Positions 4,945 through 59,674 of a stretch of DNA of 64,000 nt are shown here, in pieces. The translations under genes were made by a program, and so were the position numbers. The notes beneath the pieces are model-generated. The model saw only the letters and a list, made by a program, of their open reading frames with translations. It searched no databases and had not been told where the DNA came from. The DNA is taken from NCBI GenBank assembly GCA_951406725.2, contig OX597814.1, forward strand, positions 91,760,001 through 91,824,000, read 5' to 3'. This stretch comes from Octopus vulgaris (lineage: Eukaryota). How positions within the stretch are numbered: the stretch's first letter is position 1; each line of letters begins with the position of its first letter.

Positions 4945-7715
4945 AAAATTATAAGTATATGAAAGAATGGAGTTGAACGACTAGTTAACAAATATCCTTT
5001 ATTCTCGACATATGTTTCGAAGGCTGCATATTCCTAATTCTGAAGGAATAAGGAGTACATTATGCAGATTTCTCATCATGAAAATCAAGGAACTTATGTC
5101 GACATCAAAATGCACAAAAGACTTTTAGCTGACCGCTCTCAAGGAGCCCATGGCGATAATGAGTGTCTCTTTATAATGAGTGACATCAGAGTGGCTGAAT
5201 GTAGAAGAATCTAGAAGTTTCTAAAGGTTCAAGAGTTCAAACGGAGTAGGAGGAGGGAGGTATAAGAATAGTAAGGGGAGAGAGTGCAGGTCAAAAGAAT
5301 GGTGGGTTTAAATGATTTCTTTTGTGAATGAGTGCCTGTGTGTGTGACTGTATATAACTGTCTTAATGTGTGTATGTGTGTGTCTGAATGCGTGATTGTG
5401 TTTGTGGATGGGTAGATGTCAGAAAACTGACAGCTGTGAGGTGAAAGATCTGTGTCTCTGTGTTCGATTATGTTTACTGTAGAGAAAGAAAAGGAGATAG
5501 CGAAAGGGAGAGAGACCCGGGCGAGGTGAGAGGCAACGCAAGAATGGATAGTAGTAATTGGGAATATAAGAAAATCTTTTTGACTATTGGGGTGAAATAT
5601 AGCAAATTTTTGTTTGGAAATCGAGGGGTTATCTATATTAGTCACTATTTATATGAGTGAAAGGTGTGTCTTTTCCAGTGTAAACACCTGTAGGATCTTT
5701 CGACGAATGTGTTTATTAAAGGGCCTTTGGCGAACAAAATATGAAAAAGTTTGGAATTACAGATGCCACAAAATTTTCTGCCTTTATCAAACGGGAAGGA
5801 CACCGACAAAATGGACCATTCGAGCTTGAACGTAGTGTTATTGTTCTTCAGACGCAAGACTAATTTGCTTAGCCCTGTGCTGTGTTGCTTTCTCTTATCT
5901 CTTAAAGTGGAATAATGGTTGGAGTTCCTTTGGGCTAATTTAGAAGAGGTTGAGCCAATATAGAAGTAGACATCGGTTCCAGAAGAGATTTTGCATTGGT
6001 AAGTGGTGTTTCTAATTTTGGAATTATTGGATAAGAACTTTAATCTATTGGGGTTGTTTTCCGATACTAAGACAGAGTTTTATTGTTGTGATAGGTGAAA
6101 AAATTGTTGCTGGCTTTGGCCACGATACTATTCATCTTATTATCATTACTATTAGTTGTAATATCGTCGGCAAATTCTCTGGCTATAGGAATGCTGCGAT
6201 TGTTATCATCAATAATATAACTGTTATTAAGAATGCTGGTACTATTACCACTAACACCACCACTGTTAATAATCTGGCTAATGTAATTATCATTATTACT
6301 ATTGCTGACGCTAATGCTGCTATGAATGTTGTTAATATCCATATTACTTCTATTATTATTATTATTGTATGTTACGTTGGAATGGGTAAGGGCGGTGTCG
6401 CTACTCATGGGTAGAGAGACCCTATTTAGCAGCTTATTATTGTGGGAAGCTATTATCTGCGAAAGATTTTTAGTATTTGAGAATGGTATTCTTAATTTAT
6501 GCGAATTTATAGTGGAGTAGTATCTAGAATTCCTAGGAAAATTCTTAGTAACGGCTTCACGGAATTGTAAAGGGAGATTAGACCTGATTTGTCTCCCGAA
6601 AGGAATCACAAACCAGATATATTTTTTTTGTTCTTGGAATGGCTGAGAGTGTTGACATTTACATTAAAGGGTATATTTCTGTGTTGTAGAATGGATTTAG
6701 GTTTACGCTGGCCTCCCCTGGTCCGTAAGTTATTATTGTAAAATATATTTGTGTCGACGTCGACGTTGCTAGAGCTGAAATCACTATTTATGTTATTTAT
6801 ATTATTATTAGAAGTTATCTTATCTTGATGGGCAGATATTAGTTTAGGACGGGCCGGATCGATATATGATACCTTATCCCTATAACCGGCCTTTGACAAG
6901 GCGGCATTATAAAATTCAGCTTTCTGTTTAAAAATGTCGACATTTGCTGATAACTTAGATAGTCTTAAGGATATATTTTTAACCAAATTATCGATGATAG
7001 TTTTTGCATGGTTACTGAAAATACTGACATATTTTAGGTTCGTAGACGGCTTATGGTAAAGGGAAGTAAGAATTATTATGCAAATTTATGGTAACATCTA
7101 AGAAATTGGCCTTAGTTAGTTCGTTGTCAAAAATTATGCTTATGCCCAGCCTGCTGAAAAATCTAACTAATCTATTTTTAGTCTTCTGTATCCTACTGAT
7201 AGGGGCATTCTGTAGGTAAAAAAGACAATCGTCTCGATACAGACCGCCGCAGATGTCCGGAAATTGGTCGGCTAATTCATATAGAATATAGATTCCGACC
7301 AAATCGGCTATCTGGGCGCTATCTGAGCTTCCCATTGGCACATCGAACGCGTTGGGAGTATCCTTACGGACCCATAACTTATCATCGAATTGAATGAAGG
7401 ATTTTCTAGCGGCTAGAATTATATTAATTTCCTCCTTGTCAGCCCTGCCTTGTTATGTGCGTGCCATAGGGCCTTATTGAGCACGATGGGGTTTATCGAA
7501 GGGTAGAAATGGGAAATATCGAATTGAATGAATTTAGTGCTATTTTTATTTGAAATGGAAGAGAACCATTCTACGACTTGAGTGGAGTTAGACCATATGT
7601 TGAGTTTAAGCTTATTAACTAATCTAGGTATGTATTTATCTAAAATGTACTTACTTATGGAACCGATATCGGAACTAGAAGGGCAAATGAGCCTTAATGC
7701 TGGGTTGATTTGGAA
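4945..7715 (-). mobile_element. 5'-truncated Penelope-like element, inverted left arm (RT, linker, GIY-YIG, 3' pLTR)
   Basis: Near-identical reverse complement of 8660-11337; ORF pieces contain FDISHFYPSI, MGSSDSAQIADLVG, GLYRDD and the GIY-YIG C-terminus; ends in (TA)n. Confidence 0.95.
4995..5091 (-). ncRNA. Type-I hammerhead motif in pLTR, core mutated (C3>A)
   Basis: Reverse complement reads TCCTTGATTTTC-ATGATGA-stemII-GAAAC-ATAT-GTC-GAGAATAAAGGA. Confidence 0.75.
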
Positions 7716-7734
7716 TTTTGATGTCGACATAAGT

Positions 7735-7831
7735 TCCTTGATTTTCCTGATGAGAAATCTGCATAATGTACTCCTTATTCCTTCAGAATTAGGAATATGC
7801 AGCCTTCGAAACATATGTCGAGTATAAATGA
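7735..7831 (+). ncRNA. Type-I hammerhead ribozyme, intact core
   Basis: CTGATGA 7747-7753; stem II GAAATCTGCATA/TATGCAGCCTTC; GAAAC 7808-7812; palindromic stem III ACATATGT; GTC cleavage triplet 7817-7819; stem I TCCTTGATTTTC/GAGTATAAATGA. Confidence 0.85.
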
Positions 7832-8068
7832 TATTTGTTAACTAGTCGTTCAACTCCATTCTTTCATATACTTATAATTTTAAAATAAACATACAAATTT
7901 CCGCACGAAGACACGTAGTCTATGCCTTAGGGACGTATTTTCAACCGTGTTCTTTCTGATGTGAATTTGCTAGCCAGGTATCGGTTATCTTTGAATTATC
8001 CTTAATAAGATAATTCATTCAATTACTCTATATTCATATGCAGCTTCGTCCAGATCCTGCTACCTTAA

Positions 8069-58095: not shown

Positions 58096-58356
58096 TAAGG
58101 ATAATATTGATATTTAAATATCGATCTTATCAAGTGGCCAGCATGGGAATAAGTACCATACAAAGGTAATAATTATTTAAAACTATAAATTAGGGTATCT
58201 GAGAGATACCACCATGCTGACATAGCAGTCAAAACCCTGACCCAAAAGCCACCTTAAATGTTCATATAGTTTTATATAATGATTACCTATGTATGATATT
58301 TATTCCTAAGCTGGCCACTTGATAAGATTGATATTTAAATATCGATATAATCCTTA
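58096..58356. repeat. ~92-bp imperfect inverted repeats with ~78-bp spacer (MITE or paired PLE tails)
   Basis: 58096-58187 versus 58266-58356; right end abuts (TA)n. Confidence 0.75.
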
Positions 58357-59354
58357 TATATATATATATATATATATATATATATATATGTATATTATAC
58401 TATTGCAAGTACGGAATTAAAATAGGATTTGATGTAAACTGTGCTAGGTATGTTAGAAATATAAAAAAGAAATAAGTATCAAGAAATAGGTAACGAAATG
58501 TAATATTATCGTGATCAATATATATATATATATATATATGTGTGTGTGTGTGTGTGTGTGTGTGTGTGTATGTATGTACATATTCATGCATAAACATATA
58601 TATGTGCACATACACACATATCCATGGATATACACACATACATATATGGAAGCATATGCAGGTATTAATGGACATATGTATACGTATATACAAATGTATA
58701 TCAATAACACAAGTAATAGTCAAAATATCAAATAGATTGGTAAAAAGTTGATTATGATAATAATAATATAAGTAGTAGTAACTATAATAGGTGAAAGAAG
58801 TATATTTAAGAACATATTGTGAAAAATTTACAACATACAAAAAAATGCATATATATGTGTGTCGAAAACTTTGACTAAAAATATATTGAGTAAGGGGGGA
58901 AGAAAAGTGAATTTCTGGTAAAAACTATATAATTATTTAAAGAAAGTGTGAAAGGGTCTTATAATATTAGTTGACGGGGAATAGCATATGAATGACTAGG
59001 TAGTGTAAGGTAGATAATATAGAGAGTACAGATGATAGAAATCATATGTAAAAAGGTAGTAATTATGTAGAGGGAGGTATTATACGAATAACTAAATTAT
59101 GAGGAGGAGTAATATATATATATATATATATATATACACATATATATATATATGTATCTATATATATATACATACATACATACATATATATATATATGTA
59201 TATATATACATACATACATATATATATATATACATACATGCATACATATATATATATATATATACATACATGCATACATATATATATATATATATACATA
59301 CATGCATACATATATATATATATAACATACATATACATATATATATATATATAT

Positions 59355-59674
59355 TACGGAGTTGTACTCGCATAGCAAGTGATTCGATCTGAGATCGTGT
59401 GCTGTAACGAAAACAATTGCAGCGTGGAAGGTGTTTGTAAGCCATTTAAGAAACACACAAAAGCCGTTCGATTCACTTCAACATTTAAGTTTAATTTGTC
59501 AAAATATTTTCGTCGCTAAAATCCGCGACCTGTTCACTGACAAAAATCCGTGCTGCATCTGATTCTTGATGCATCACGGATTTTTGTCAGTGAACAGGTC
59601 GCGGATTGAAGTGAATCGAACGGTTTTTGTGTGTTTCTTAAATGGCTTAGAAACACCTTTCACGCTGCAATTGT
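59355..59674. mobile_element. Palindromic non-coding element carrying a G3:C8 hammerhead
   Basis: Arms ~59413-59559 and ~59568-59674; the right arm lacks ~40 nt; left end abuts (TA)n. Confidence 0.8.
59495..59544 (-). ncRNA. Minimal type-I hammerhead, G3:C8 core variant
   Basis: TTTGTCA-GTGAACA-G-GTCGC-GGATTTTA-GCGAC-GAAA-ATAT-TT-TGACAAA: 7-bp stem I, 5-bp stem II, palindromic stem III AATATT. Confidence 0.75.

What the first reader, a model, noticed from the sequence alone, without database searches (positions are those of the whole stretch)
4945..59674. Shared insertion architecture: head-to-head, 3' tails outward, mostly into (TA)n
Seen: using HHR or ORF sense to orient them, five different elements (4945-11485, 31834-32938, 44836-46826, 49598-49930, 59355-59674) all have a (-) left arm and a (+) right arm. 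Eight of the ten outer ends abut (TA)n; the exceptions are the left end of 31834 and the right end of 59674. Single-arm HHR repeats (13972, 20016, 39276, 44113) also end 3' in (TA)n. Known: PLEs often carry an inverted pLTR and some GIY-YIG PLEs prefer simple repeats. Inference: both ends of a break in (TA)n prime reverse transcription and the two cDNAs are joined, and one PLE machinery may serve both coding and non-coding passengers.
Basis: partly seen in the sequence, partly recalled or inferred. Interest (0 to 1): 0.7.

Follow-up and report, generated by a model that had tools for sequence, protein, structure and literature searches.

The report
Penelope elements primed from both strands
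These back-to-back repeats are single insertions of Penelope-like jumping genes from several families, in a layout already described, and their unequal, fixed end points indicate that both cut strands of the target DNA likely start copying the element's RNA at two set positions, rather than one copy folding back on itself.

Summary
The layout is real and genome-wide. Of 204 sampled copies in four of the five families, 131 are head-to-head and none tail-to-tail. In 115, one arm ends at the element's 3' end (site A) and the other at a fixed internal site (B), 55-155 nt upstream by family. Target-site duplications, mostly 12-15 bp, enclose the whole unit (35 of 43 scorable). In 71 of 100 simple units neither arm contains the other, which argues for twin priming and against fold-back. 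(TA)n targeting is family-specific (80%, 78%, 47%, 15% of 3' ends; background 3-6%). There is no single machinery: two elements are Hydra-type, two 'non-coding passengers' are stubs of coding Neptune-type elements, and only one is a non-coding tandem retrozyme. The inverted copy, the tail and the TA bias are published. I did not find the twin-priming explanation in print, but this scan noted it before on other DNA (41 findings, at least 15 genomes). Unexpectedly, the two Hydra-type families lack the linker zinc finger proposed to direct (TA)n targeting, yet the one I counted has the strongest TA bias.

The parts
7715..11486 (+). E1 main arm: near full-length Hydra-type PLE (5' pLTR, broken RT + GIY-YIG ORF, 3' pLTR) ending at site A next to (TA)n
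   Evidence: (GIY-YIG E=0.0015, below Pfam cut-off)
4946..7720 (-). E1 inverted 5'-truncated arm; outer end is site B (about 11337 in main-arm coordinates), so it lacks the ~150-nt tail; joined to the main arm with about 6 overlapping bases
11338..11486 (+). E1 tail, between site B (family ends at 11331, 11337, 11341) and site A
7741..7825 (+). E1 hammerhead motif (C3-G8 core, long stem II, palindromic stem III); cores in the other two pLTR copies are damaged
   Evidence: cleavage untested
31682..32890 (-). E2 main arm: 3' part of a second Hydra-type family (EN C-terminus, 3' UTR, pLTR with hammerhead at 31975-31902), ending at site A next to (TA)n
32894..32937 (+). E2 inverted arm, 44 bp, ending at the family's site B (152-161 nt before A)
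44837..45975 (-). R1 left arm: two tandem 565-nt non-coding hammerhead units, ending at site A
45990..46825 (+). R1 right arm: 1.5 units, also ending at site A (A/A is rare: 1 of 40 sampled units)
49598..49729 (-). R2 inverted arm ending at site B; pLTR stub of a Neptune-type coding PLE
49731..49929 (+). R2 main arm ending at site A; U3-A8 hammerhead-like core
59356..59562 (-). R3 main arm ending at site A; pLTR stub of another Neptune-type coding PLE; G3-C8 hammerhead core
59568..59674 (+). R3 inverted arm with an internal deletion, ending at site B; abuts the 3' end of a SINE (59676-60086, minus strand)
43896..44112 (+). R4 short (~220 nt) hammerhead repeat, single-armed; second copy at about 13974-14200 (minus strand)
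19783..20062 (+). R5 hammerhead-bearing repeat end (U3-A8); TA run at 20016 is an internal, B-like site; second copy 39042-39275 stops there

Best explanation
Each head-to-head unit is one Penelope-like insertion, likely made when the element's nuclease cuts both target strands about 12-15 bp apart and each free 3' end primes reverse transcription of the element's RNA, one at the family's site A and one at site B, after which the two cDNAs are likely joined at their inner ends. Shown: fixed A and B ends, one of each per unit; duplications around the whole unit; non-nested arms; short matches or fillers at the junction; shared variants between the arms. Inferred: staggered cut with 3' overhangs; two RT events on one RNA (or on transcripts of one source copy), probably by a protein dimer; fine register at A and B set by 2-4 nt of pairing with the primer; many short stubs made by priming in the RNA's 5' pLTR and running off its 5' end. 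Each coding family likely uses its own enzyme; the R1 retrozyme likely borrows a TA-targeting one.
For: Architecture: 131 of 204 units head-to-head, 115 A/B, 2 A/A, 1 B/B, 13 with one end elsewhere, 73 single-armed; E2 family 14 of 25 A/B by eye. One event: duplications of 9-20 bp (mostly 12-15) in 22 of 29 R2 and 13 of 14 R3 two-armed units that are not TA-flanked on both sides, against 1.2 and 0.3 expected from shuffled flanks; only 5 of 27 single-armed units keep one (p=3e-7), as expected if priming protects both overhangs. Two cDNAs: in 100 simple A/B units the arms do not overlap in 20 and the B arm reaches further 5' in 51, while the A arm always holds the tail; 49 hold by a margin over 20 nt. 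B is a start site on its own: 34 B-only units, two R2 B-only units with a duplication, B-ended arms over 1.9 kb. Joining: at least 3 nt exact microhomology in 28 of 62 filler-free junctions against 6.4% by chance; 38 have fillers of 1-35 nt. One source: non-majority variants shared by both arms of a unit at 0.43%, 3.7%, 1.7% and 2.2% of sites against 0.03%, 0.6%, 0.5% and 0.8% between units. In vitro precedent: the anole PLE protein cuts and extends both strands, starts at two sites that delimit the tail, and is predicted to be a dimer (PMC11167929, parts 1-2 of 4 read).
Against: In 29 of 100 simple units the B arm is nested in the A arm, which fold-back also explains. Shared variants could come from gene conversion between arms or from related source copies, and do not separate twin priming from fold-back. 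Matching 5' ends exceed permutation in E1 (12 of 25, p=0.0002) and R1 (4 of 7, p=0.006) but not in R2 (p=0.17) or R3 (p=0.53). Duplications cannot be scored in E1 and R1 (11 of 17 against 8.1 expected; 8 of 9 against 5.7), so 'one event' is shown only for R2 and R3. PMC11167929 saw no difference in start site between strands, so the near-strict A/B pairing is not explained by it. No biochemistry was done here.
Confidence: 0.75

Rival explanations
1. Self-priming or fold-back: one arm is copied from the other, either from an antisense RNA that primes itself (proposed in PMC3846280) or from a cDNA that snaps back; later deletions at the palindrome centre break the symmetry.
For: 29 of 100 simple units are nested and 13 have equal 5' ends; some junctions are palindromic; arms share variants; the published proposal rests on palindromic junctions (PMC3846280, section 11 and passages).
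Against: 71 of 100 units are non-nested and would each need a second, one-sided deletion; B-only insertions exist, two with duplications, and some B arms are kilobases long.
Confidence: 0.1
2. Both strands prime, but on two separate RNAs or RNPs that meet at one break.
For: Arms of one unit still differ at 0.7-7.7% of sites; E1's left arm holds 88 bp missing from the right arm; two A/A units occur.
Against: Arms share rare variants 3-14 times more often than arms of different units, including 19 variants seen in no other sampled arm; A pairs with B in 115 of 118 units whose two ends fall in either class, where free choice would give many A/A and B/B.
Confidence: 0.12
3. Two independent insertions into the same (TA)n hot spot, or chance in a TA-rich genome.
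For: (TA)n runs are dense; SINE copies in the window also sit in (TA)n; a few pairs are separated by TA (L303).
Against: 90 to 4 orientation bias; arms are joined directly; one duplication encloses both arms at non-TA sites.
Confidence: 0.02

Closest known systems
Inverted-pLTR insertions of EN+ Penelope-like elements with a tail at one end (PMC8557442 passages; PMC3846280 passages and section 11)
   Same: Inverted 5'-truncated copy at the 5' end, head-to-head; tail on one end only; duplication around the unit; partial tandems; hammerheads in pLTRs.
   Different: Tails here are 145-161 nt (Hydra-type), about 91 nt (R1) and about 55 nt (Neptune-type) against 30-40 bp published; A/B pairing is quantified; the data favour twin priming over the published antisense self-priming idea.
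Hydra clade PLEs, including Hydra-1_Obim (PMC8557442 section 11 and supplement rows)
   Same: C-terminal GIY-YIG, DKT motif, no CCHH, CxxC and CxH near the C-terminus, hammerhead, (TA)n targets; E1 protein resembles Hydra-1_Obim by eye.
   Different: RWK reads RWL; the CxCX5C linker is replaced by a ~140-aa Asn/Ser-rich stretch with 0-1 Cys in 8 E1 locus reads (7 distinct copies) and is also absent in the E2 copies read.
Anolis Poseidon element PAc in vitro (PMC11167929, parts 1-2 of 4)
   Same: Both strands cut and extended, two RT start sites delimiting the tail, AT-rich targets.
   Different: The parts I read do not link these properties to the inverted arm; PAc starts without homology to the target, whereas E1, E2 and R1 ends show 2-4 nt matches to (TA)n (read by eye).
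LINE-1 twin priming (abstract start of PMC2837659; other details recalled)
   Same: Two primers, inverted 5' part, duplication around the unit, microhomology join.
   Different: Here it is the majority outcome (131 of 204), the second start is a fixed site close to the first, and the arms usually overlap (80 of 100).
Non-LTR retrozymes (bioRxiv 10.64898/2026.07.22.740005, part 1 of 5 read)
   Same: R1: tandem non-coding units, each with a type I hammerhead motif; proposed PLE dependence.
   Different: R1 arrays show the full PLE integration signature (A/B ends, inverted arm), which is direct genomic support for PLE mobilisation.

Membership tests
EN+ Penelope-like element | RT plus GIY-YIG endonuclease in one ORF | tested here: met
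   E1: RT and EN motifs in one 713-aa frame of copy L317; R3 family: YVDD RT and EN in long copies; R2 family: EN and upstream ORF; E2 family: EN. Not met for R1 and R4, where no ORF was seen.
EN+ Penelope-like element | pLTR in partial tandem or inverted orientation | tested here: met
   E1 direct pLTRs at 7748-8039 and 11203-11498; inverted arms in all five families.
EN+ Penelope-like element | Tail present at one end only | tested here: met
   115 of 131 two-armed units are A/B; tails longer than published.
EN+ Penelope-like element | Hammerhead motif in the pLTR | tested here: met
   Core positions 3 and 8 covary by family: C-G (E1 69/70, R1 17/18, R4 34/35), U-A (R2 22/22, R5 21/21), G-C (R3 65/72). 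Self-cleavage not tested.
Hydra clade (E1, E2) | DKT motif; CCHH absent; CxxC and CxH around the EN C-terminus | tested here: met
   E1 translations; E2 EN only; definitions.
Hydra clade (E1, E2) | RWK motif | tested here: inconclusive
   E1 reads RWL at that place.
Hydra clade (E1, E2) | CxCX5C linker before the EN | tested here: not met
   0-1 Cys in the 139-142-aa linker in 8 of 8 E1 locus reads; no such motif in the E2 copies read. Filed as Hydra-type variant, not a typical member.
Hydra clade (E1, E2) | Placement in the Hydra clade by RT phylogeny | not tested
Neptune/Nematis-type PLE (R2, R3) | CX2-5CxxC linker and CCHH motif in a C-terminal GIY-YIG | tested here: met
   Both motifs readable upstream of the R2 and R3 pLTRs.
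Neptune/Nematis-type PLE (R2, R3) | Clade by RT phylogeny | not tested
   No tree built; Neptune versus Nematis is not resolved.
Non-LTR retrozyme (R1) | Non-coding tandem units each with a type I hammerhead | tested here: met
   565-nt units, arrays up to at least 6 units; cores at 45176, 45741, 46483.
Non-LTR retrozyme (R1) | Self-cleavage and circular RNA | not testable with these tools
   No RNA data examined.
Twin priming (LINE-1 type) | Inverted 5' arm, duplication around the whole unit, microhomology at the inner junction | tested here: met
   (duplications scorable only in R2 and R3).
Twin priming (LINE-1 type) | Both cDNAs from one RNA molecule | tested here: inconclusive
   Shared variants enriched 3-14 fold, but conversion or related source copies are not excluded.

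The most novel reading that the evidence does not exclude
Two-strand priming at two fixed RNA sites is the normal way Penelope-like elements of different clades, and the retrozymes they carry, integrate. The tail is the family-specific spacing between the two RT starts of a dimer, and (TA)n targeting does not need the linker zinc finger.
Probability: 0.5. Interest if true: 0.7.

Novelty: new variant of a known kind. Interest (0 to 1): 0.5.

Why it matters
PLEs are the sister group of telomerase, and how they form inverted repeats, tails and microsatellite bias is stated as open in PMC8557442. These data give one mechanism for the inverted arm and the tail, with measurable predictions (overhang of 12-15 nt, A on one strand, B on the other, family-specific spacing) that can be tested with the existing in vitro system. 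They also argue against two published proposals: antisense self-priming as the main source of the palindromes, and the linker zinc finger as the (TA)n-targeting part. The layout itself is not new, and the scan has already reached the same mechanism in other genomes.

Tried and rejected
Rfam scan: no hammerhead in the 150 of 203 rows shown. The repeat finder was swamped by microsatellites. Homologue search with the E1 EN region: 955 candidates, none at E<=0.001. Empty-site test: contigs of four runs laid on 44400-50600 were swamped by repeats and broke at microsatellites; at locus L370, contigs of organisms A and D run into the element on both sides, and no contig joined across it, so no empty allele was seen. 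Duplication search in E1 and R1 is uninformative because targets are TA-like. No common structure in the tails: folding z of -2.8, -1.6, +0.1 and -0.7 against mononucleotide shuffles. No A-to-G excess among shared variants (7 of 101), unlike an earlier scan note. No sequence similarity between R1 and the coding families in the window, so its partner is unknown. Rows dropped before counting: 4 E1 units cut by a locus edge and 2 units with shared flanks; four R1 units (L267, L272, L280, L355) are copies of one duplicated insertion, counted four times in the 204 and once in the 100. Some E1 fillers are artefacts of a 12-nt deletion in my reference copy. Literature searches for a printed twin-priming model for PLEs found none; most subscription papers are not in the library.
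Full report
Setting. The window is 34% GC and dense in microsatellites. It lies in G000, 2.8 Gb in 227 contigs. The SINEs look like octopus tRNA-SINEs (recalled, not tested), and earlier scan notes on this genome also call it an octopus. I name the five elements E1 (4946-11486), E2 (31682-32937), R1 (44837-46825), R2 (49598-49929) and R3 (59356-59674), and the single-armed repeats R4 (13974, 43896) and R5 (19783, 39042).

Observation. All five are head-to-head. The second exception (59674) is a SINE 3' end. 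By a strict rule 8 of 10 ends abut (TA)n and one more does so after an A-run, against 4.8% background. In E1, E2, R2 and R3 one arm stops short of the other's 3' end.

What the elements are. E1 is a near full-length PLE: pLTR, broken RT and GIY-YIG ORF, pLTR, plus an inverted truncated copy. E1 and E2 have Hydra-type motifs but lack the CxCX5C linker. R2 and R3 are not non-coding elements: long copies run upstream through microsatellite-rich 3' UTRs into GIY-YIG ORFs with a CX3-4CxxC linker and CCHH, and R3 copies also carry an RT motif. R1 is a tandem 565-nt non-coding hammerhead repeat. Hammerhead cores covary at positions 3 and 8 between families, which supports their identity and the orientation used. 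Exact-pattern counts were 515 (E1), 1202 (E2), 4834 (R1), 4556 (R2), 8090 (R3) and 2928 (R4).

Genome-wide architecture. I sampled copies in genome order with a pattern just upstream of the internal site, so that both end types could appear: 240 loci, merged to 204 units. Head-to-head 131, tail-to-tail 0 by outer ends, single-armed 73. Of the 131, 115 pair a full 3' end (A) with a fixed internal end (B); 2 are A/A, 1 is B/B and 13 have one end elsewhere. B lies 145-155 nt before A in E1, 152-161 in E2, about 91 in R1 and about 55 in R2 and R3. Position lists give 90 head-to-head against 4 tail-to-tail neighbours. R4 does not follow: 1 of 30 copies has an adjacent inverted copy, although 26 of 30 end in (TA)n. 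R5 shows an internal TA site and one two-armed copy among 20.

Targets. (TA)n of at least 8 nt abuts 96 of 120 E1, 50 of 64 R1, 31 of 66 R3 and 11 of 72 R2 A or B ends, against 3-6% in flanks. At sites that are not TA-flanked on both sides, duplications of mostly 12-15 bp enclose the whole two-armed unit in 22 of 29 R2 and 13 of 14 R3 cases, against about 1 by shuffling. Single-armed copies keep one in only 5 of 27. In E1 and R1 the test has no power. After site A the target usually begins AT (R2, 19 of 31) or AA (R3, 17 of 21).

Mechanism. In 100 simple A/B units the arms do not overlap in 20, the B arm reaches further 5' in 51, the ends are equal in 13 and the A arm is longer in 16. Because only the A arm has the tail, neither arm can be a copy of the other in 71 (49 by more than 20 nt). 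B-only insertions exist (34), two of them with duplications, and some B arms are kilobases long, so B is a start site in its own right. Junctions show at least 3 nt microhomology in 28 of 62 against 6.4% by chance, or fillers of 1-35 nt in 38. Arms of one unit share non-majority variants 3-14 times more than arms of different units, which fits one RNA or one source copy but also gene conversion. Inner ends cluster near -350 (E1) and -200 (R2, R3), just upstream of the hammerhead; I infer an RNA 5' end there. The best model is a staggered double cut, priming at A from one overhang and at B from the other, and end joining of the two cDNAs (confidence 0.75). Fold-back can account for up to 29 of 100.

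Comparison with what is known. The inverted 5'-truncated copy, the one-sided 30-40-bp tail and (TA)n bias are described in PMC8557442 (passages, section 11, supplement rows), which lists their origin as unresolved and includes an octopus Hydra family inserted in (TA)n. PMC3846280 (passages, section 11) reports head-to-head as most frequent, with duplications, and proposes self-priming on an antisense template. PMC11167929 (parts 1-2 of 4) shows both-strand cutting and extension and two start sites. A 2026 preprint ties retrozymes to PLEs (part 1 of 5). PMC13282606 (passages) gives only counts of Penelope-like elements. Five searches found no printed twin-priming model for PLEs. This scan's earlier notes reach that model in at least 15 genomes, and notes on this genome describe the same head-to-head stubs; they are unchecked AI notes and add no independent support.

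Side result. PMC8557442 links the linker zinc finger to (TA)n targeting. Here the linker-less Hydra-type E1 has the strongest bias (96 of 120) and the linker-bearing R2 and R3 the weakest (42 of 138; p=8e-16). This rests on three counted families, and mobilisation of E1 by another enzyme in trans is not excluded.

Verdict. Real, a known layout, with good genomic support for a specific mechanism that was not found in print. Interest 0.5.

Noticed in passing
window 9870-10200; L051, L117, L120, L126, L128, L027, L317, L332; L463-L480: E1 and E2 carry a long Asn/Ser-rich stretch between RT thumb and EN in place of the Hydra linker zinc finger, like the N-rich inserts described in Adineta PLEs, yet sit in (TA)n.
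   Followed up: partly
window 49750-49790, 59500-59545, 19930-19965: Hammerhead cores with U3-A8 (R2, R5) and G3-C8 (R3) pairs, fixed within each family; Rfam listed none of them.
   Followed up: partly
window 43896-44112, 13974-14200; L281-L310: R4 is a ~220-nt hammerhead repeat with a fairly fixed 5' start and almost no inverted arms, so it may integrate differently from the other hammerhead families.
   Followed up: partly
L267, L272, L280, L355: One two-armed R1 insertion occurs four times with the same junction and similar flanks over 20 Mb of one contig, so it was duplicated inside a larger repeat.
   Followed up: partly
L042, L093: Junction fillers copied from another part of the element; in L093 both arms share the same jump, which fits one template or fold-back.
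   Followed up: no
window 44147-44744, 15830-16297, 59676-60086, 46842-47007: tRNA-SINE-like repeats (identity recalled) are also flanked by (TA)n; one pair is tail-to-tail (44147-44546 and 44551-44744), the opposite of the PLE layout.
   Followed up: no
window 58081-58371: An older palindrome (arms about 75% alike) next to (TA)n; possibly another two-armed PLE stub.
   Followed up: no
window 28540-31268 and 21218-21825: Decayed ORF fragments that look like non-LTR retrotransposon ORF1 by eye; not tested.
   Followed up: no
L311 1312-2314; L313 1880-2768: A mariner-like transposase ORF and a CR1-like RT fragment in flanks, by eye.
   Followed up: no
L455, L456: Two loci on different contigs where an R3-family coding copy lies next to an E1-like coding fragment in the same arrangement; likely a duplicated segment.
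   Followed up: no
window about 4380-4480: A 100-base assembly gap about 450 bases left of E1.
   Followed up: no
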